Assembly: GCA_964399295.1 (NCBI GenBank)
Contig: CAYNQD010000001.1
Location: 271,672-335,671, forward strand
From: an uncultured Candidatus Saccharibacteria bacterium
GTDB lineage: Bacteria > Patescibacteriota > Minisyncoccia > Phycocordibacterales > UBA918
Direction of reading: 5' to 3'
Length of the DNA: 64,000 bases
Made by a program: the position numbers and the translations under genes. The notes under the pieces are model-generated. The model had not been told where the DNA came from, did no database searches, and worked only from the letters and a program-made list of their open reading frames with translations. Shown one piece after another: positions 13,651 through 63,247 of this stretch (positions are counted from its first letter, which is position 1; the number at the start of each line of letters is the position of its first letter).

Positions 13651-13680
13651 GAAGTCAATCTTTCTTCAAATTCGGAATTG

Positions 13681-13753
13681 TGGACCCTAGCGGACTTGAA
13701 CCGCTCGCCTCATCCATGCCATGGATGCGCTCTACCGGATGAGCTAAGGGCCC
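13681..13753 (-). tRNA. tRNA-Ala (anticodon GGC)
   Basis: Reverse complement folds as a cloverleaf: acceptor GGGCCCT, G3:U70 Ala identity pair, anticodon stem CATCC/GGATG with loop AU-GGC-AU, T-arm GGTTCAAGTCC. 73 nt, CCA not encoded. Confidence 0.85.
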
Positions 13754-13883
13754 TAAATGAGGGTTAGGCTATTATACTAAAACTTGTGGAAAATGAAAGT
13801 ATGCTGTCATTACCTTGCTTCAAGTACATGAACAAAAAAAGCCACCTCAAAGCGGTGGACTTTTTTGGCAAAAATTTAATCGG

Positions 13884-13956
13884 TGGACCCGAGAAGATTC
13901 GAACTCCCTGCCTCCTCAGTGCAAATGAGGCGCTCTACCAAGTGAGCTACGGGCCC
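13884..13956 (-). tRNA. tRNA-Ala (anticodon UGC)
   Basis: Reverse complement: acceptor GGGCCCG with G3:U70, anticodon stem CCTCA/TGAGG with loop UU-UGC-AC, T-arm GGTTCGAATC. 73 nt. Confidence 0.85.
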
Positions 13957-37270: not shown

Positions 37271-37566
37271 GTTTAACGTATTATATAACTTGCGTATTTT
37301 TATTTCTCTAGTTTATACCCACAAGTAAAATTTTTGTTCTAACGGCACAGATTACAGGAGTGAGACTTGGCAGTATTTGAGAAAATTAGAGCGTCCTTAT
37401 TGATAGTGGAATTTAAAAAACGACTACAGACAACATGTTCTAAACCTGGGTGTTGATAACTCCGTATGACTAAGACATCTTCCCACAAAGTATGATTACT
37501 AATTGGTATTATTTTTATGCTTTTTCAGACATAAACCCTTAAATACATAAGATACAACCGTCCTTT

Positions 37567-37620
37567 ATATAAGACATTAAAAGACAAGGCCAGTTGGCCT
37601 TGTCTTTTAATGTCTTATAT
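37567..37620. terminator. long perfect hairpin (25-bp stem, 4-nt loop), terminator of the EPS-like operon
   Basis: atataagacattaaaagacaaggcc-agtt-ggccttgtcttttaatgtcttatat. Located 10 bp downstream of the stop of 37630..38850 and upstream of hsp20. Confidence 0.55.
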
Positions 37621-37629
37621 AATTTAGCT

Positions 37630-52349: not shown

Positions 52350-52673
52350 ATGGAAAAACCAGACCTTATTTTTAATCAAAATTGCTCAGTTCGTAAAGCC
52401 TTGGAAATTATCGGTGGCAAATGGTCAATTTTAATTTTTAACGAATTGCTTAAACACGAAATTCTGCGTTTTGGTGAACTCCGAAAAGTGTTGGGTAATG
52501 TCAACACCCGCACATTGACCTCCACCTTAAGACAATTGGAAGAAGTCGGCTTGATCGCCCGCAAAATCTACAGTGAAATCCCGCCCAAAGTTGAATACTC
52601 CCTTACCGCCAAAGGCAAAGAGTTGAAAGAGGTGCTAGTGCAACTCCAGCTCTGGTACGAAAAATGGCATTAA
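52350..52673 (+). CDS. HxlR-family (DUF24) winged-helix transcriptional regulator
   Basis: CSVRKALEIIGGKWSILIFNELL...RFGELRKVLGNVNTRTLTSTLRQLEEVGLIARKIYSEIPPKVEYSLT is the canonical HxlR-type HTH. Confidence 0.85.
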   Translation: MEKPDLIFNQNCSVRKALEIIGGKWSILIFNELLKHEILRFGELRKVLGNVNTRTLTSTLRQLEEVGLIARKIYSEIPPKVEYSLTAKGKELKEVLVQLQLWYEKWH

Positions 52674-52684
52674 AAGCCCCAATG

Positions 52685-54070
52685 CTAAATATCATGGTCA
52701 ATCTCCACTTCCTCGTAAGTGTCTACGTTCGGGGTGGATGGTTCTTCAGATTCAACCTCATGACTTTCCTCAACTTCTTCACTTATCATTTCTGTTTCTG
52801 TGTCAATCACCAAAGGAGCTGGGGCTGAATCCGTCGCCGTAAATTGCAAATGCAGACTCTTGGCAACCACATACCCACTCACATCACCAGATGAAGCCAA
52901 ATAACCCTTAAAAATAATATCAACTTCACAACTCTCACCAACATGATTATTTTGATTCATTAAAAAACCAAGGGACCAAGGGTTTGTAAACGAAACTTCA
53001 CTGCCGACTAAGCTAAGGAGGCTTCCGGAAAAAACCAGCGGCCAGCCCGCTTCCACGATCAAATCATCACAGAAAGCGGGCTGGCCGCTGGTTTTTTCTA
53101 CCAACACGTCATAAACCAATTCCTCGACATTGTCCAAATGAGGTGTCAATATCACTTCCAAACCACCTCCTTCCAGCTGTCCGCCAACAAAAACCAAAGA
53201 AGTGTAATTGGGACTAATGGAGAAATCCAAAGTTTGCGCTTTTAAGGAATTATCCACACTAGTCTCAATATCTTTAAGGTAAGAAAATGTTGAGTCGTCA
53301 AACGTACTCTGTCCAGCCAAAATCACCAGAAAAGCTATTGCCGCCGTCGCCATTGTCAAGCGCGGCTTGATATCATGATAAGCTTGAGCTGTATCAGATG
53401 ATAACGAAATCTTTGCTTCCGTTACCACTACTTTTTTTTTCTCAATCGGCTTTATGTCCAGCAAACGAGTTCTTACCACTACCGGCAGCACCTCTTTGGC
53501 CGGTAGTTTATTTGGATCAAAAGGAGCCACCACCAAAGGCATAATCATTTCTTTAGTAAATTTAATTTGTCGTATCCGCCTAACCTCTCGCCAGATTTTG
53601 GCAAGCTCGTCCAGAATTATCAGCAAAGCCGGAATACCCACCAAAAAAGCAAAGCCCATAGGCTGTCTGGCAAAATCCAACACAAAACCAACGTAGGGCA
53701 AGTCAAACACTACCTTGCCAATTACGTTATTTGGCGACACCAAATTTGCGTCGGCTTCTTCATTGGCATCACCCTTGGTAACAAAAAAATCTACTCCGCT
53801 CACATTTTCCATTCCAACAATCCGGTGCGTGGTGGGAATTTTTGAATTTTCCTCCGTAAAGGTTATAACATCGCCAATTCCATAATTAGCAGCCTCTTTA
53901 ATCACCACCACCGCTCCCGTCATGATAGCCGGCTCCATGGAACCTGATTTTACGATTTTTGCATCAAGAAAATCAGCTGCCGGCACGGAAGGCGCGACAA
54001 ACAAAACTCCCAGCCCAACAATAATCAGCCCGCAGATACCATATAGAAGAAAAGAAAATATTTTACTCAT
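52685..54070 (-). CDS. ER/archaeal-type signal peptidase I (SipW-like, S26B) with ~290-aa C-terminal extension
   Basis: N-terminal TM. Catalytic Ser motif KSGSMEP. Conserved His region ITFTEENSKIPTTHRIVG. Box D/E-like GDANEEADANLV. After a second TM, the extension contains AGQSTFDDSTFSYLKDIETSVDNSLKAQTLDFSI, resembling the cognate signal motif of the upstream genes. Acidic C-terminal tail. Confidence 0.8.
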   Translation of the reverse strand: MSKIFSFLLYGICGLIIVGLGVLFVAPSVPAADFLDAKIVKSGSMEPAIMTGAVVVIKEAANYGIGDVITFTEENSKIPTTHRIVGMENVSGVDFFVTKGDANEEADANLVSPNNVIGKVVFDLPYVGFVLDFARQPMGFAFLVGIPALLIILDELAKIWREVRRIRQIKFTKEMIMPLVVAPFDPNKLPAKEVLPVVVRTRLLDIKPIEKKKVVVTEAKISLSSDTAQAYHDIKPRLTMATAAIAFLVILAGQSTFDDSTFSYLKDIETSVDNSLKAQTLDFSISPNYTSLVFVGGQLEGGGLEVILTPHLDNVEELVYDVLVEKTSGQPAFCDDLIVEAGWPLVFSGSLLSLVGSEVSFTNPWSLGFLMNQNNHVGESCEVDIIFKGYLASSGDVSGYVVAKSLHLQFTATDSAPAPLVIDTETEMISEEVEESHEVESEEPSTPNVDTYEEVEIDHDI

Positions 54071-54072
54071 AC

Positions 54073-55263
54073 CTAACGATTGTTACCCCTAACTAAACTG
54101 ATAATAGCTTCTCGCACTCCCTCCAGCCGCGAAGTACTACCGACAATCGACTCAAAGGCTTCACTATTTATCGGAGCGGCTGGCTCTGCAGGAGTAGCAG
54201 GTGAAGCTGGCATAGCGGGACTGGCCGGAGCAACGGGCGTACTAGGCGATGAGGGCATACTGGGCGAAGTTGGTTTTGCAGGCTGAGCTGGACTGACTGG
54301 ATTAGTAGGATTGGCGGGCGAAGCCGGATCAGCTGGTTTTGCAGGTTCTGCCGGTTTGGCTGGCTCTGCCGGAGTAGCTGGCACACTAGGTTTTGGATTA
54401 TTGTTCCAATCATCTTCCCAATCATGATCTGGCTTGCACTTTTTATCTTTTTTATCCTTGCATTCCGGCTTTGGGTTGTCTGGCTTAGGCTCTAAAGCAC
54501 ATTTGAAGCCTTGATTATTTTTGGCCTGTACCGCCCGCAAACTCACGTCCACAGTCATTGAATCAGTCTGAATTATATTGCCCACTTGACTGCCATCACA
54601 ACTGACAGCCGCCGTGGCGAGATTGACATTCAGCCGACCGGCACACCACAGTACCCCCACATTATTTAGTGAATTAGCCGCCCACGACTGGCCGACAGTG
54701 GAATCAGCCAAAGGGTAAGTGATGTCGTCCAGCAAAATATCCGCTGTATTCACCACTCCGTCACCAAAAATCACCCCTTCCCCCACATCAAAAGCACTGT
54801 TTTTATTATCATCCAACCAAGCAAATAATTGCAAATGACTAGACAGTTCCCCACTCTCCGGGGTGAAGTCTACCAGACTTTCCGGCTCATTGATGCCATT
54901 TTCATAGTCCTGCAAATTCTTGAAATCAAGACAAACATAAGCCGGATTCTTTTTCACTTTCAGTCCGATGTTGTTTCGTCCATAATCTCCGGGCTTTACG
55001 TCGTCAAAGTCAAAAAAGTGATCCGCCCCAGGCACCAAATCTTTCAACTCCCAAGTCAAAGGCGACTGCAAAAGGCCGTTGTACCAAGTTTCACTGCTGA
55101 TAGTTAATTCCAATCCGTCCTTTTTATCATTATCCTTACTTTTCTTAGTGGCAAAAGTATAACCGGCTTTTGCGCCGTCAGCCGAAAGCAATACCAACAT
55201 CAACACCAAGCTCCCGCTCAGCATCATTATTTTTGCTCCTCGTTGGTAAAAGATTTTTGGCAT
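54073..55263 (-). CDS. TasA/camelysin-like (SipW-substrate family) secreted protein, divergent third paralog with Pro/Ala-rich C-terminal tail
   Basis: Shares FDFDDVKPGDYG, ESLVDFTPESGEL and QTDSMTVDVSLRAVQAKNNQGFKC blocks with the two upstream paralogs. The N-terminal cognate-signal motif is degenerate (GAKAGYTFATKKSK). C-terminal PAEPAKPAEPAKPADPASPANP... low-complexity tail. 2-bp gap to the peptidase gene. Confidence 0.65.
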   Translation of the reverse strand: MPKIFYQRGAKIMMLSGSLVLMLVLLSADGAKAGYTFATKKSKDNDKKDGLELTISSETWYNGLLQSPLTWELKDLVPGADHFFDFDDVKPGDYGRNNIGLKVKKNPAYVCLDFKNLQDYENGINEPESLVDFTPESGELSSHLQLFAWLDDNKNSAFDVGEGVIFGDGVVNTADILLDDITYPLADSTVGQSWAANSLNNVGVLWCAGRLNVNLATAAVSCDGSQVGNIIQTDSMTVDVSLRAVQAKNNQGFKCALEPKPDNPKPECKDKKDKKCKPDHDWEDDWNNNPKPSVPATPAEPAKPAEPAKPADPASPANPTNPVSPAQPAKPTSPSMPSSPSTPVAPASPAMPASPATPAEPAAPINSEAFESIVGSTSRLEGVREAIISLVRGNNR

Positions 55264-55315
55264 GAATAGCTAATTACACTAATATCAGCATCTACTCCCC
55301 TTCCTCTAAATAAAT

Positions 55316-56713
55316 TTAATTGATAATTGGCGGTAAAGTGGCGCAATTTAGCGCGCTAAAGGCATCTAGGTCATAACCGTCAGCCAAAGCTTCAAATGGC
55401 GCTCGGGGCGACACGTCTGTCAAACGCACATACTTTGCCCAAGACAATCCAGAACTCGCCAAATCTGCCTCTGCGTCACGGTCAATGCTGGAAGCCACCA
55501 AGTACCAATTTGTACCGTCTTGACTAACCTCAATTTTTACTTTCTCTACCGGATAGCTAGTACCACCTGTCACTTCCCAAGCTCGCAAATCATTGCCCGG
55601 CCCGTCAACAATATAACCATCACCAAATTCAACGATAATCCATCCGCCCTCAACTTCATTTACGTCAGGATTAAAACCAAGACTAAAGAAACTGCTTGAG
55701 ACTACCGGATTGTCAAACGCGGCTCCAGAACTCTGTGGAGCACCTAAAGCAAAGGCTGGGTTTGAGCGGTCAAGATCAATCGTCGTGCCGTTTTTTCGCA
55801 CTCCTTGAGAATAATCCACCACTTTAGTGGCGTAGGTTTGTTCTGGTGTACAGGTCAAATCCACTTTTTGACACATAAAGTTTTCATTGTGTCTGGCTTG
55901 CACGGCGTGAAAAGAAACATCAGCCGTCAAAGAATCAGTCTGGCTTTCATTACCCAGATGCGCTCCCGCACACTGGAAACCACCATCAGCCGGCTCGCCC
56001 GCAATAGTGTTTCCGTTGTTGTCACCAGCTGGATTTATAGCATCTCCAAAACCATCTTGTGGCAATGGCATTGGCGTGATGTCACCAAAGCACCAAGCCT
56101 TACCGATATAATAAGCAGTCGCACCTGTTACCGGCCCGCCCACATTACCTTCGTTCCAGATGTTAGATTGAGAATCAGCTAGCGTGATTGGGTATGGTTC
56201 GTTCAAGGACAAATTTCCGATTGCAGCCGGGCCGGAAATAACCATTTCGTCATCTTCCAGCACATTGTCGCCATCATCAGCCCACCAGATAAAATTGGTC
56301 AACATCGCCAATTCACCCTCGCCCACTCCGGGATTACCACAAGTACCGTCCACCAAAGATTCAGGCTCGGTACAGCCGTTGTCGTTGTTTGAAGTTAGGG
56401 TGATATCAGCGCACATGTAAGCGTCATTGGTGTCAACATGAATTGAAATTGTGTCCTCACCATAATCTCCTGGTTTAACATCATCAAAATTAAAAAACTT
56501 TTCAATGGTCAGATTCCGTTTTGTCCATGAAGTGACTTCACTAAAAACACCATTGTAATAACTTTCATTATCAATCAAAAGGTCAATCGCCCCCGCCGTA
56601 AATACGTTGGCCACCGAAGTCTCAACATCAGAAAAGAAAGCTTTGGTAGCACCAAAAGTCAACGCGCCCCCGACCACTATTATCATCGCCAAACTCAAAA
56701 AAATTCTTTGCAT
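55316..56713 (-). CDS. TasA/camelysin-like secreted protein with SipW-cognate-type signal peptide
   Basis: N-terminus IIVVGGALTFGATKAFFSDVETSVANVFTAGAIDLLI (compare B. subtilis TasA GGGTWAAFND..ATFASGTLDL). FNFDDVKPGDYG (compare TasA NLKPGD). Conserved QTDSLTADVSFHAVQARHNENFMC block. Confidence 0.75.
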   Translation of the reverse strand: MQRIFLSLAMIIVVGGALTFGATKAFFSDVETSVANVFTAGAIDLLIDNESYYNGVFSEVTSWTKRNLTIEKFFNFDDVKPGDYGEDTISIHVDTNDAYMCADITLTSNNDNGCTEPESLVDGTCGNPGVGEGELAMLTNFIWWADDGDNVLEDDEMVISGPAAIGNLSLNEPYPITLADSQSNIWNEGNVGGPVTGATAYYIGKAWCFGDITPMPLPQDGFGDAINPAGDNNGNTIAGEPADGGFQCAGAHLGNESQTDSLTADVSFHAVQARHNENFMCQKVDLTCTPEQTYATKVVDYSQGVRKNGTTIDLDRSNPAFALGAPQSSGAAFDNPVVSSSFFSLGFNPDVNEVEGGWIIVEFGDGYIVDGPGNDLRAWEVTGGTSYPVEKVKIEVSQDGTNWYLVASSIDRDAEADLASSGLSWAKYVRLTDVSPRAPFEALADGYDLDAFSALNCATLPPIIN

Positions 56714-56784
56714 AAGTAATAATTATTGTAATAAAATATGATAAATATATTGATAAACTAATCACGCTGATCCCCTTCAGCCCG

Positions 56785-56811
56785 CAGAGCGCGACCTACG
56801 GTCGCGCTCTG
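56785..56811. terminator. intergenic hairpin between first and second TasA-like genes (possible attenuator or partial terminator)
   Basis: cagagcgcgacc-tac-ggtcgcgctctg: 12-bp perfect GC-rich stem within the 139-bp gap. Confidence 0.35.
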
Positions 56812-56852
56812 AACGGCTAGAGAGAAACCACTAAAACACTCTTAATTAGTGT

Positions 56853-58097
56853 TTAGAAAACATCCACCTGGAAATCACTTGAATATCCACTTCCGATTGG
56901 ATGCCATACAGAGTTTAGAGCTGAAACTGGAAGGACTGCGTTTACAACACCATAACCACCGTCAGCAAGCCATAATTGAACAGCGAAAGCGTATGAAGTA
57001 CCAGTGAAGTAACTACTATCAACCGTAATAGTATATTCATCGGCAACTCCAGATGGGGTAGCTGTTATACCTAATGGAAGTGGTACATTAGCACCCCAGT
57101 TATCTCCACCGTTTGAGACATTAAATACACGATAAGTAAATGCTCCATTGTAGAATGAAACCTGAGCATCCTGCACTCCATTGTTTTCGTAATCAAGCAC
57201 AACAGCAAAGAAGTCGTTTGTTTCTGAAAGGTTTTTTGGCGTGTTAACCACAAACTTTACATCTCCACCACCATTCACAGAACGAGTTACTGAAAAATCA
57301 TTCCAGCCAGAGTCAAGAGTAATGAAGTCAACTGGCTGAGCATTTCCAGTACCGTTGTGTCCATTTGCCCATCCCCCATAGGCAGTATCGGTGTTTAGAG
57401 TACCGAAGTTTTGACCAACCTCCTCTTCATCACCATCGTTCAAACTAGAACAATCAAAGTTTGGATTGTGACGAGTCTGCACGGCGTAGAAACTAATATC
57501 AGCTGTCAATGAGTCAGTCTGAGCTAGATTGTAATTTGCCAATGGGTCTAATTCCAAGTTACTGCCATTGAAGACTCCAAAACCGTACTCAATAGTACTG
57601 CTGGTAGTAGCACCGGCAGCTACAACGCCCAGTTTCTGCCATTGACCGCTAATAGCGTCCAAAGTACCGGTAGCCGAACCGAACTTGAAGGACAAGAATT
57701 GTCCCAGTTCACCATCACCACCAGTCTCATCATCAGCAGCCGCTTCCGGGCCATTGATACCATTATCATTATTTTCCTTTTCTTCTACCAACACGCAAAC
57801 ATGGGCTTCGTTGGCACCGTTTTCCAATTCATAAATCACCTTGCCGTGGTCAAGCGGCTTTAGGTCAGCAAAAGCAAATGACAGGTTATTTCCTGTACTA
57901 CTGGCAGTAAACTGCACCTCTTCATCAGTCACGTTGACACCCTCATGGCTGATATTCTTGACCTCCAAGGTCACTGAACCAGCCGTGAAGATGTTGCCGG
58001 TTGAGGTTTCTGTATCGCTAAAGAAAGCACCGGTACCGCCAATCACCAAAGCGCCGGCAAAGACGATGACTCCCAAGCTTTTAATAATTTTATTCAT
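56853..58097 (-). CDS. TasA/camelysin-like secreted protein with SipW-cognate-type signal peptide (first gene of cluster)
   Basis: N-terminus VIVFAGALVIGGTGAFFSDTETSTGNIFTAGSVTLEV. FAFADLKPLDHG. AQTDSLTADISFYAVQTRHNPNFDC. Preceded by a 428-bp leader/promoter region. Confidence 0.75.
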   Translation of the reverse strand: MNKIIKSLGVIVFAGALVIGGTGAFFSDTETSTGNIFTAGSVTLEVKNISHEGVNVTDEEVQFTASSTGNNLSFAFADLKPLDHGKVIYELENGANEAHVCVLVEEKENNDNGINGPEAAADDETGGDGELGQFLSFKFGSATGTLDAISGQWQKLGVVAAGATTSSTIEYGFGVFNGSNLELDPLANYNLAQTDSLTADISFYAVQTRHNPNFDCSSLNDGDEEEVGQNFGTLNTDTAYGGWANGHNGTGNAQPVDFITLDSGWNDFSVTRSVNGGGDVKFVVNTPKNLSETNDFFAVVLDYENNGVQDAQVSFYNGAFTYRVFNVSNGGDNWGANVPLPLGITATPSGVADEYTITVDSSYFTGTSYAFAVQLWLADGGYGVVNAVLPVSALNSVWHPIGSGYSSDFQVDVF

Positions 58098-58228: not shown

Positions 58229-58273
58229 TGATACAGCTGCCAATTGGCCCGAAAATGGCGAAGCCATTTTCGG
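58229..58273. terminator. long perfect hairpin (20-bp stem, 3-nt loop) downstream of the desaturase gene
   Basis: gccaattggcccgaaaatggc-gaa-gccattttcgggccaattggg. Separates the desaturase from the TasA-like cluster promoter region. Confidence 0.5.
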
Positions 58274-58525
58274 GCCAATTGGGGATAAGTTAGTTAAAAA
58301 CCTTGAAAAACAACATAATTATTATCCACAGCCCCTGTGCAAAACCATTGTAAAAAGTCTGTATAAAGCTGGTATAAGTGGTTGGTAAAGTAAAAAAACC
58401 AAAAATACAACACGGGTTTTGTAGATAGGAAATACCCAACATCTTGAATCCCTAAAATATTATCCCTTGCTGTTCACACTAAAAAAGCCGGTCAAGCAAG
58501 CTTGACCGGCATAAAATCCCAACAT

Positions 58526-63183: not shown

Positions 63184-63247
63184 GTGAATTGAGGATGAAA
63201 AAGAGCGGCGGCCTTTAGGCCGCCGCTCTTTTTCATCCTCAATTCAC
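63184..63247. terminator. bidirectional rho-independent terminator with 30-bp perfect stem, downstream of groEL
   Basis: gtgaattgaggatgaaaaagagcggcggcc-ttta-ggccgccgctctttttcatcctcaattcac. GC-rich inner stem followed by TTTTT on both strands. 5 bp from the groEL stop. Confidence 0.65.

What the first reader, a model, noticed from the sequence alone, without database searches (positions are those of the whole stretch)
52685..58097. Dedicated SipW-type signal peptidase operon with three tandem TasA/camelysin-like substrates
Four co-oriented genes on the minus strand: 414-aa, 465-aa and 396-aa paralogs followed 2 bp later by an S26B (ER/archaeal-type, SGSMEP) signal peptidase. The first two carry the SipW-cognate signal signature A-F-F-S-D-(T/V)-E-T-S-x-x-N-(I/V)-F-T-A-G, the same class as B. 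subtilis TasA and CalY. They also share KPGD and QTDSLTADxSFxAVQ blocks, so they are true paralogs. This is the architecture of a peptidase-dependent extracellular fibre or matrix system (TasA-like). Triplicated substrates with progressive divergence suggest a major and a minor subunit organisation. The locus is preceded by a 428-bp leader and followed by a convergent HxlR regulator.
Basis: partly seen in the sequence, partly recalled or inferred. Interest (0 to 1): 0.75.

Follow-up and report, generated by a model that had tools for sequence, protein, structure and literature searches.

The report
TasA-like fibre operon with fused peptidase
A tiny, uncultured Patescibacteria (CPR) bacterium carries a four-gene operon for TasA-like surface-fibre proteins, and its signal peptidase is fused to a fourth substrate-like module, which suggests how such fibres may be started and capped.

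Summary
Four co-oriented minus-strand genes (414, 465, 396 and 461 aa) sit at 52685-58097. The last is an S26B/SipW-type signal peptidase. The first three are paralogs, and two carry the SipW-cognate N-terminal motif.

The family assignment is supported but not new. Thousands of Patescibacteria homologs exist, and NCBI already names some "TasA family", "CalY family" or "SipW-dependent-type signal peptide-containing protein".

- In TasA the conserved motif is not cleaved off. It is the N-terminal donor strand of the mature protein, so cleavage is predicted before FFSD, not after FTAG.
- The peptidase gene is 2.5 times normal length. After the peptidase come a basic cytoplasmic linker, a third membrane helix, a cognate cleavage/donor motif (T-F-S|YLKDIETSVDN), an Ig-like beta-sandwich and an acidic tail.

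This module is a separate gene just downstream of sipW in many other Patescibacteria. It is fused in this clade, in 69 of the best 150 representative clusters.

The third paralog keeps a T-x-A cleavage site but has lost the donor strand.

I propose a three-role logic: a donor-only initiator (the fused module), donor-plus-acceptor shaft subunits that carry payload domains (CBM32-like in the 465-aa protein), and an acceptor-only cap. These roles are inferred, not shown.

The parts
58487..58510 (-). Intrinsic terminator of the upstream fatty-acid-desaturase gene. It marks the 5' limit of the operon's transcription unit.
   Evidence: 10-bp stem with 7 GC pairs and a T-run. RNA fold -18.8 kcal/mol, z -6.7. 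The upstream ORF is PF00487.
58240..58282 (.). 20-nt perfect palindrome in the 428-nt leader. It could be an operator or an RNA hairpin; its function is unknown.
   Evidence: -36.4 kcal/mol, z -7.9. It is unique in the window.
56853..58097 (-). Gene A (414 aa): a TasA-like subunit. Signal peptide aa 1-24, predicted cleavage T22-G23-A24|F25, donor-strand motif aa 25-44 (57966-58025), TasA-like core to about aa 220, and a C-terminal domain of unknown fold (aa ~225-414).
   Evidence: TIGR04088 at 28.2 bits against a cut-off of 19. hhalign of the A family against TasA: 77 columns, 38% identity, E 1.3e-5. 20 of 22 homologs match PF12389. Homologs conserve only the N-terminal ~53% of the protein.
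56785..56811 (-). GC-rich hairpin between genes A and B. It may be an attenuator or mRNA stabiliser that favours expression of gene A.
   Evidence: 12-bp perfect stem, -31.2 kcal/mol, z -5.8. A hairpin sits at the same position in 8 of 10 related operons examined.
55316..56713 (-). Gene B (465 aa): a TasA-like subunit. Predicted cleavage T23-K24-A25|F26, donor motif aa 26-45, core to about aa 285, and a CBM32/discoidin-like C-terminal domain (aa ~290-465 = 55319-55846).
54073..55263 (-). Gene C (396 aa): a TasA-like core paralog with a signal peptide and a T36-F37-A38 site, but with the donor-strand motif deleted or replaced by a charged stretch. It has a Pro-rich low-complexity region (aa ~258-365 = 54169-54492) and a short conserved C-terminal segment.
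   Evidence: B-C 34% identity, E 1e-31. No TIGR04088 or PF12389 hit. Motif-less orthologs lie immediately upstream of the peptidase in at least 14 of the 80 scanned loci, plus L084 and L086. All share G-x-TFAT...LxLKIDS.
53546..54070 (-). Gene D, aa 1-175: S26B (SipW/Sec11-type) signal peptidase. It has TM1, a catalytic domain (S44 in SGSMEP, H82, D101, D107) and TM2.
53357..53545 (-). Gene D, aa 176-238: basic linker, predicted to be cytoplasmic, with a conserved R-M/L-M/L-D-I motif (window RLLDI, aa 202-206).
   Evidence: 17 K+R against 9 D+E. Consensus RMMDI with I206 at 90% or more. AF2 pLDDT below 50.
53222..53356 (-). Gene D, aa 239-283: a third TM helix oriented like a signal peptide, followed by a cognate cleavage/donor motif T261-F262-S263|Y264-LKDIETSVDNSLKAQTLDF.
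   Evidence: hhalign of the D family against the B family aligns TM3 plus motif with the signal peptide plus donor motif: 47 columns, prob 94.5%, E 8e-8. E269 and N274 are invariant; T261, Y264 and D267 are at 90% or more. The -1 residue is S or A in 19 of 20 sequences.
52688..53221 (-). Gene D, aa 284-461: Ig-like beta-sandwich (aa ~284-414, invariant C334 and C381, GYxDEE) followed by an acidic disordered tail (aa 415-461).
53028..53098 (.). 25-nt perfect inverted repeat inside the D coding region (aa 325-348), flanked by A6/T6 runs. Unexplained.
   Evidence: (-59 kcal/mol, z -9.2). It is absent from the orthologous genes of relatives.
52350..52673 (+). Convergent HxlR-family regulator gene. 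Its stop codon is 11 nt from D's stop. The link to the operon is unproven.
   Evidence: PF01638, E 6e-28. An HxlR gene is nearby in L086 but not in L084 or L004.

Best explanation
The locus is an operon of a Patescibacteria (CPR; Paceibacterota/Parcubacteria-like) bacterium. It encodes a TasA/BsaA-class, SipW-dependent extracellular fibre system.

Shown:
- D's N-terminal 175 aa are an intact S26B signal peptidase.
- A and B carry the cognate signal peptide followed by the TasA-type N-terminal motif and a TasA-like beta-sandwich core. Each has a different C-terminal 'payload' domain (CBM32/discoidin-like in B).
- D continues in frame into a basic linker, a third membrane helix, a second copy of the cognate cleavage/donor motif, an Ig-like domain and an acidic tail.
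- That module is a separate gene directly downstream of sipW in many other Patescibacteria. It is fused in this clade.
- C and its orthologs keep a signal peptide and a T-x-A site but lack the donor motif.

Inferred:
- By the positive-inside rule, TM3 places its motif on the outer face of the membrane, next to the catalytic domain. The peptidase would then cleave A and B at T-x-A|FF, and its own C-terminal module at T-F-S|Y, in cis or in trans.
- The freed N-terminal strands act as donor strands, as in TasA (residues 28-38).
- The fused module has a donor strand but its own complete Ig fold. It would act like TapA as a donor-only initiator.
- A and B, with donor strand and acceptor core, would polymerise head to tail and display their payload domains along the fibre. 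A is first in the operon and is followed by a hairpin, so it may be the major subunit.
- C, an acceptor without a donor strand, would cap or terminate the chain.
- The fibre probably serves adhesion or matrix formation. For an episymbiont that could mean attachment to host-cell glycans through the CBM32-like domain.
For: Peptidase:
- TIGR02228 at 112.9 bits against 51.85.
- S44, H82, D101 and D107 are conserved.

Cognate motif:
- TIGR04088 passes for A.
- hhalign to TasA covers the signal peptide, donor strand and LKPGD strand, E 1.3e-5.
- 20 of 22 A homologs match PF12389.
- Foldseek hit to the TasA fibre 8aur_A, E 2.9e-4.

Motif is the mature N-terminus and donor strand in TasA:
- The 8AUR chain starts at A28.
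- PMC9674648.
- The motif has pLDDT below 50 in both monomer models.

The fusion is real and conserved:
- All 120 best homologs are 410-723 aa and cover 79-100% of the query.
- 69 of the 150 best representative clusters are fused and 80 are stand-alone.
- The TM3-plus-motif region matches the substrate profile at prob 94.5%, E 8e-8.
- Residues at -3 and -1 are T and S/A.

Operon census over 80 loci:
- 66 have at least one upstream motif gene.
- 9 are fused and 33 have a split downstream motif gene.
- The close relatives L084 and L086 keep the four-gene order and the 2-nt C-D gap.

C-type lacks the donor motif:
- Seen in at least 16 operons.

TapA precedent:
- An N-terminal donor-like peptide, a complete Ig fold and adjacency to sipW are described in PMC9674648 and PMC10151520.
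Against: - No experiment, multimer model or proteomic data exists for any of these proteins.
- Fibre formation, cleavage sites, self-cleavage of D and the initiator and cap roles are all inferred.
- The mature cores of A-C are below Pfam's threshold. The PDB profile search finds no TasA.
- D's Ig-like domain shows no sequence similarity to TapA (hhalign prob 0.4%) and only generic Ig-fold matches.
- C's N-terminal segment might still pair as a short strand.
- Whether the genome has a second, general signal peptidase was not checked, so 'dedicated' is unproven.
Confidence: 0.62

Rival explanations
1. A, B and C are non-polymerising secreted or surface proteins (lectin-like adhesins or enzymes). 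They merely use the SipW-type peptidase as this organism's export processing enzyme. The shared N-terminal motif is a recognition element for the peptidase, not a donor strand.
For: - The C-terminal payload domains vary widely: CBM32-like here, and PF19403, PF13229, PF05048 and PF00092 in homologs.
- The cores are only weakly TasA-like.
- No second signal peptidase was seen in the 64-kb window.
Against: - The motif lies downstream of the predicted cleavage site and is conserved far beyond what a -3/-1 rule needs.
- The same motif is the donor strand in TasA and BsaA.
- The complementary pattern of subunits (motif with core, core without motif, motif without core) is hard to explain without strand exchange.
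Confidence: 0.15
2. The C-terminal module of D is not cleaved off. It stays tethered by TM3 as a permanent accessory domain of the peptidase. It could be a membrane anchor that holds the fibre base, or a substrate-docking or chaperone domain like the SipA/LepA peptidase homologs of Gram-positive pili.
For: - The fusion keeps the module at the membrane.
- BsaA oligomers are reported to be membrane-anchored (PMC11580942).
- The conserved cytoplasmic RMMDI linker motif suggests a function for the intact protein.
Against: - In 33 or more loci the same module is a separate gene with an ordinary N-terminal signal peptide, so it is a normal substrate there.
- The T-x-(S/A)|Y signature is conserved in the fused forms.
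Confidence: 0.18
3. The subunits are additionally locked covalently by intermolecular Asn-Lys isopeptide bonds ('exchange and lock'), as in C. perfringens BsaA. The invariant Asn of the donor motif would bond to the Lys of the (L/V)KPGD strand.
For: - In BsaA, N35 in the donor strand (N-x-F37) bonds K74, catalysed by E56 (PMC11580942).
- Here the Asn is invariant or nearly so: A N35 followed by x-F37, B N36, D N274.
- K80 of KP(G/L)D is conserved.
- The D module has the Asn but no KPGD. C has KPGD but no Asn.
Against: - TasA also has the LKPGD lysine without any cross-link.
- The catalytic acid could not be identified without coordinates or the BsaA sequence.
- That paper finds the triad mainly in Clostridia, with some homologs in Coprobacillaceae, Enterococcaceae and Thermococcus. 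It does not mention Patescibacteria.
Confidence: 0.2
4. The proteins are camelysin-type metalloproteases (Peptidase_M73), or RiPP precursors as one source names them. Alternatively, the 461-aa ORF is an assembly or frameshift artefact.
For: - The Pfam family name, and JGI's label 'predicted ribosomally synthesized peptide with SipW-like signal peptide'.
Against: - None of A-D has an HExxH motif.
- The M73 name is regarded as a likely misidentification (PMC11580942).
- The proteins are 396-465 aa with folded domains.
- The fusion recurs in 69 or more independent clusters and in three further contigs with identical sequence.
Confidence: 0.02

Closest known systems
Bacillus subtilis tapA-sipW-tasA (TasA fibres; PDB 8AUR, 5OF1)
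   Same: - An S26B signal peptidase is encoded with its substrates.
- The substrates share a signal peptide followed by an A/F-F-x-D...F-x-(A/S)-G-x-(L/I)-D-L N-terminus, which is the donor strand in TasA.
- The L-K-P-G-D strand and a beta-sandwich core are shared.
- An accessory protein (TapA) has a donor-like N-terminus, a complete Ig fold and a disordered charged tail, and its gene abuts sipW.
   Different: - Gene order here is substrates, then sipW, then the accessory module, and that module is fused to the peptidase.
- There are three core paralogs, each with a large C-terminal payload domain.
- One paralog lacks the donor strand.
- Core sequence similarity to TasA is limited to about 80 N-terminal residues.
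- There is no detectable sequence similarity to TapA.
- NF046067 (the Bacillus SipW equivalog) scores 114.7 against a cut-off of 190.
Clostridium perfringens sipW-bsaA-bsaB-bsaC (BsaA exchange-and-lock fibres)
   Same: - A SipW operon with several TasA-like paralogs plus a protein carrying an adhesion-type domain.
- The donor strand carries an Asn in an N-x-F context.
- The published model has SipW cleavage coupled to assembly at the membrane.
   Different: - The peptidase is first in the operon and is not fused.
- The isopeptide triad is not verified here.
Bacillus cereus sipW-tasA-(bc1280)-calY
   Same: - Two camelysin/TasA paralogs with the FFSD..E.S..N motif and a SipW peptidase.
- NCBI names some Patescibacteria homologs 'CalY family protein'.
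   Different: - There are no payload domains, no fused module and no donor-less paralog.
Archaeal bundling pili AbpA/AbpB (Pyrobaculum calidifontis)
   Same: - A TasA-fold subunit polymerised by donor-strand complementation.
- A proposed TapA-like initiator (AbpB) that may carry adhesin domains (PMC9245690).
   Different: - No dedicated peptidase.
- Very distant in sequence.
Chaperone-usher pili (FimH/PapG tip, PapH terminator)
   Same: - The same subunit logic: one end subunit lacks a donor strand, and another cannot be extended.
   Different: - This is an analogy only. There is no usher or chaperone, the organism is monoderm, and the strand polarity and assembly machine differ.

Membership tests
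S26B signal peptidase I (archaeal/ER/SipW type; TIGR02228) | Profile score above the curated cut-off | tested here: met
   112.9 bits against 51.85, covering aa 16-156.
S26B signal peptidase I (archaeal/ER/SipW type; TIGR02228) | Ser/His catalytic residues (SGSMEP Ser; His in the TTHR motif) and conserved Asp residues, rather than the Ser/Lys dyad of S26A | tested here: met
   H82, D101 and D107 are invariant, and S44 is at 90% or more, across 61 homologs. The bacterial-type model TIGR02227 scores only 21.7 against 47.
S26B signal peptidase I (archaeal/ER/SipW type; TIGR02228) | Peptidase fold and flanking TM helices | tested here: met
Bacillus SipW equivalog (NF046067) | Equivalog score cut-off | tested here: not met
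   114.7 bits against a cut-off of 190. D is SipW-like but not an equivalog.
SipW-cognate signal peptide class (TIGR04088) | Profile score above the cut-off of 19 bits | tested here: met
   A scores 28.2 and passes. B scores 17.4 and fails narrowly, although its motif is present. C has no hit. D's internal motif aligns to the B-family N-terminus at prob 94.5%, E 8e-8.
TasA/camelysin (Pfam PF12389 Peptidase_M73) | Gathering score over the domain | tested here: not met
   A and B score 21.7 against 22.5, and only aa 13-50 match. 20 of 22 A homologs match at E of 0.01 or better, best 2.8e-7.
TasA/camelysin (Pfam PF12389 Peptidase_M73) | TasA-like jelly-roll/beta-sandwich core | tested here: inconclusive
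TasA/camelysin (Pfam PF12389 Peptidase_M73) | Polymerisation by N-terminal donor-strand exchange | not testable with these tools
   Only monomer predictions were available. The motif is disordered in the monomer models, which is compatible with a donor strand but is not a test.
TapA-like initiator | SipW-processed N-terminus resembling the major subunit's donor strand, followed by a complete Ig-type fold | tested here: met
TapA-like initiator | Sequence homology to TapA | tested here: not met
BsaA-type isopeptide 'exchange and lock' | An N-E-K triad: donor-strand Asn, acceptor Lys and a catalytic Glu | tested here: inconclusive
   The Asn (A N35, B N36, D N274) and K80 are conserved. No catalytic acid could be assigned, and the BsaA sequence was not retrievable.

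The most novel reading that the evidence does not exclude
Patescibacteria build a self-priming surface fibre. A SipW-type peptidase is fused or translationally coupled to its own initiator subunit. It cleaves that subunit to expose a donor strand, which nucleates TasA-like shaft subunits carrying interchangeable lectin or adhesin payloads. A paralog that has lost its donor strand ends the chain. The fibre, possibly locked by Asn-Lys isopeptides, would be an attachment organelle of ultrasmall episymbionts distinct from their type IV pili.
Probability: 0.3. Interest if true: 0.8.

Novelty: new variant of a known kind. Interest (0 to 1): 0.6.

Why it matters
TasA-type fibres are a main scaffold of Gram-positive biofilms, and their donor-strand mechanism was solved only in 2022-2023. 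How such fibres are started, ended and anchored is still argued, even in Bacillus, where TapA's role remains unclear.

In Patescibacteria, almost all work on host attachment concerns type IV pili. This locus, and several hundred related ones, show a compact and widely conserved alternative system. The genes themselves separate three roles: donor strand only, donor strand plus acceptor core, and acceptor core only. The peptidase is physically joined to the putative initiator.

That gives directly testable predictions for fibre polarity and for peptidase-coupled assembly. It also offers a candidate adhesion structure for uncultured episymbionts.

The core annotation (SipW plus TasA-family proteins) is not new. 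Public pipelines already assign it, and PF12389 homologs in Patescibacteria were noted in PMC9245690.

Tried and rejected
- **PDB profile search with the B family.** No TasA was found, only a marginal chitobiase F5/8 hit.
- **hhalign of the D family against TapA.** Negative, so a homology claim to TapA was dropped and only the architectural analogy is kept.
- **hhalign of the D family against the B family beyond the motif.** Nothing aligns, so D's Ig-like domain is not a detectable TasA-core paralog.
- **HxlR as a dedicated regulator.** Adjacency is seen only in the window's own contigs and in L086, not in L084, L004 or the other loci. It is treated as a neighbour only.
- **Sigma-70 promoter scan of the leader.** No convincing minus-strand promoter was found.
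- **In-ORF hairpin as a conserved regulatory device.** It is absent in all eleven orthologs checked and remains unexplained.
- **Metalloprotease reading.** There is no HExxH motif.
- **Literature.** Searches for SipW, TasA or camelysin together with Patescibacteria/CPR found only the AnnoTree remark in PMC9245690.
- **Accession or organism name for the window's own proteins.** None was returned.

Full report
**1. Observation**

The gaps are 139, 52 and 2 nt. A 428-nt intergenic region lies upstream. It begins with a strong terminator of the preceding fatty-acid-desaturase gene at 58487-58510. An HxlR-family gene converges on D; the two stop codons are 11 nt apart.

A, B and C are true paralogs in their N-terminal ~220-285 aa:
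- B-C: 34% identity over 245 aa, E 1e-31.
- A-B: 38% and 47% identity in two blocks.
- A-C: 27% identity.

KPGD is present in B and C, while A has KPLD. The QTDS(L/M)T.D.S...VQ block is in all three.

**2. Organism and how common the system is**

D's exact sequence occurs on a 594-kb NCBI contig and in three SRA assemblies. Homologs of A, B and D come almost entirely from Patescibacteria/CPR MAGs: Paceibacterota, Kaiserbacteria, Nomurabacteria, Minisyncoccia and others.

B has more than 2370 homologs among the candidates scored, and A has 717. NCBI already names some of them 'TasA family protein', 'CalY family protein' or 'SipW-dependent-type signal peptide-containing protein'. D-type proteins are named 'signal peptidase I'. 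Wang et al. 2022 listed Patescibacteria among the phyla with PF12389 homologs (PMC9245690). The basic family assignment is therefore not new.

**3. The peptidase**

**4.

D is 461 aa, whereas a typical SipW is about 190 aa. After TM2 come, in order:
- A basic linker (17 K+R against 9 D+E), predicted to be cytoplasmic by the positive-inside rule. It carries a conserved R-M/L-M/L-D-I motif.
- A third hydrophobic helix, which falls within aa 234-257.
- The sequence T261-F262-S263-Y264-LKDIETSVDNSLKAQTLDF.
- A confidently modelled beta-sandwich (aa ~284-414, pLDDT 95-98, invariant C334 and C381).
- An acidic tail with 17 D+E and no K+R.

A profile-profile comparison aligns TM3 plus this motif with the signal peptide plus N-terminal motif of the B family over 47 columns (prob 94.5%, E 8e-8). 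The -3 and -1 positions are T and S/A in 19 of 20 aligned homologs. The same T-x-A|F pattern is seen in A and B.

This architecture is not an artefact:
- All 120 best homologs are 410-723 aa and cover 79-100% of D.
- A search of 1.84 billion representative proteins with the module alone found 208 clusters. Of the best 150, 69 are fused to a peptidase and 80 are stand-alone.

**5. Synteny**

In 80 Patescibacteria loci fetched with the peptidase profile, a regex and BLAST census gave the following:
- 66 loci have at least one motif-bearing gene upstream on the same strand, and 45 have exactly two.
- 9 have the fused peptidase.
- 33 have a separate gene starting at or overlapping the peptidase stop. 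That gene encodes a signal peptide followed by Y-(Y/F)-x-D-x-E-x-S-x-x-N...LDF.

All eight split versions tested carry a lamin-tail domain (PF00932) after the first domain, and two fused homologs do as well. The window's D is therefore a gene fusion of sipW with the conserved last gene of the operon.

The close relatives L084 (993-kb contig) and L086 keep the same four genes, the same order and the 2-nt C-D gap. They also keep the LemA and M48 (L084) or desaturase (L086) neighbours.

**6. What the motif is**

My recalled B. subtilis TasA sequence matches PDB 8AUR exactly, and the fibre chain begins at A28 'AFNDIKSKDATFASGTLDL'. Böhning et al. showed that residues 28-38 are the donor strand that completes the next subunit's sheet. 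They also showed that TapA's N-terminus resembles this strand and probably nucleates assembly (PMC9674648). Roske et al. reached the same view and noted the tapA/sipW overlap (PMC10151520).

hhalign of an A-family alignment against TasA aligns 77 columns at 38% identity (E 1.3e-5). The alignment runs through the signal peptide, the donor strand and the (L/V)KPGD strand. In both AF2 monomer models the motif is disordered.

**7. The cores and payloads**

Pfam PF12389 matches only aa 13-50 of A and B, just below threshold. However, 20 of 22 A homologs match it. The B model (pLDDT 86) hits the TasA fibre 8aur_A by Foldseek (E 2.9e-4, prob 1.0, TM 0.45 normalised to TasA).

**8. Gene C**

C and its orthologs always lie immediately upstream of the peptidase, in at least 14 of the 80 loci plus L084 and L086. 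They have a signal peptide and G-x-T-F-A-T, then pass directly to L-x-L-K-I-D-S...YNG. The S-D-T-E-T-S-x-x-N-x-F-x-A-G stretch is deleted. In the window's C it is replaced by KKSKDNDKKDG. More distant lineages have a C-like gene that still carries the motif.

C keeps the KPGD strand and the rest of the core. It adds a Pro-rich region and a short conserved C-terminal segment.

**9. Mechanism (inferred)**

TM3 follows a cytoplasmic linker, so it should insert N-in/C-out like a signal peptide. That would present T-F-S|Y at the outer face, beside the catalytic domain. I propose the following.
- The peptidase processes A, B and C, and also its own C-terminal module.
- The module has a donor motif plus a complete Ig-like fold. 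It would act as a TapA-like, donor-only initiator.
- A and B would polymerise by strand exchange and display their payload domains.
- C, an acceptor without a donor strand, would end the chain.

Which end faces the cell is open. Under the base-growth model proposed for BsaA (PMC11580942), the initiator would end up distal and C proximal.

A hairpin follows gene A (56785-56811). A hairpin is found at the same place in 8 of 10 related operons. This fits higher expression of the first subunit.

**10. Possible covalent lock**

In BsaA, the donor-strand N35 (in an N-x-F37 context) forms an isopeptide bond with K74, catalysed by E56. Here the Asn is conserved in A (invariant N35, followed by x-F37), in B (N36, at 90% or more) and in the D module (invariant N274). 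K80 of KP(G/L)D is conserved. The D module has the Asn only, and C has the Lys only.

I could not identify a catalytic acid or obtain the BsaA sequence, so this stays a low-probability extension.

**11. Limits**

- No multimer modelling was possible.
- No expression or proteomic data were used.
- The rest of the genome was not scanned for a second signal peptidase.
- The TapA comparison is negative at the sequence level.

**Verdict**

This is a real, conserved operon of a known kind (SipW plus TasA-class subunits). It has a previously undescribed and widespread variant architecture: a peptidase-initiator fusion and a donor-less paralog. No paper describing this architecture was found in the library searches.

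Noticed in passing
window 53028-53098 (inside gene D, aa 325-348): A 25-nt perfect inverted repeat lies in the coding sequence. It extends to a 27-bp stem with RNA MFE -59 kcal/mol and z -9.2. A6/T6 runs flank it, so it looks like a bidirectional intrinsic terminator. It encodes conserved residues, including the invariant C334. It is absent from all eleven orthologous genes checked. It may terminate the convergent hxlR transcript or pause or truncate the D mRNA. Unexplained.
   Followed up: partly
window 58240-58282: A 20-nt perfect palindrome (3-nt loop, -36.4 kcal/mol) sits in the leader upstream of gene A. It occurs only once in the window. It could be an operator or an RNA element.
   Followed up: partly
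window 56785-56811; L004 5444-5468, L007 5315-5341, L008 4684-4713, L011 5169-5195, L016 1479-1507, L018 5588-5613, L084 5044-5070, L086 2819-2845: A stem-loop follows the first subunit gene in the window and in 8 of 10 related operons. Four relatives share the sequence CTAAATCTCAG...CTGGGATTTAG. It may be an attenuator or stabiliser that sets subunit ratios. No background control was run.
   Followed up: partly
window 63184-63247 and 37565-37622: Two further very long perfect hairpins (31-nt and 28-nt arms, 2-nt loops) lie in intergenic regions. This genome seems to use unusually long perfect palindromes between genes.
   Followed up: no
window 53453-53467 (D aa 202-206, RLLDI); alignments A1 and A3: A short R-M/L-M/L-D-I motif is conserved in the otherwise variable, disordered, basic cytoplasmic linker of fused peptidases (I206 at 90% or more). 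This hints at a cytoplasmic interaction partner.
   Followed up: no
L015, L019, L028, L030, L040, L063, L071, L075 (gene downstream of the peptidase); P0236, P0238: All eight split downstream 'Y-motif' proteins tested carry a lamin-tail domain (PF00932), and two fused homologs do as well. The window's D lacks it and ends in an acidic tail instead.
   Followed up: partly
window 54073-54170 (C aa ~365-396); L004, L084 and L086 C-type genes: C-type proteins of this clade end in a conserved ~25-aa segment that looks amphipathic. Examples are ...SRLEGVREAIISLVRGNNR and ...LSKKVRDSILAIFGKSNHN. It follows a Pro-rich or charged low-complexity spacer and may mediate envelope association.
   Followed up: no
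homologs: The TasA-like N-terminal module is combined with many different C-terminal domains across Patescibacteria: PF19403 SpaA-like, PF00754 discoidin, PF13229 and PF05048 beta-helix, and PF00092 vWA. A's own C-terminal domain (aa ~225-414) has no family match.
   Followed up: no
window 13680-13956: Two tRNA-Ala genes (anticodons GGC and TGC) lie about 130 nt apart on the minus strand.
   Followed up: no
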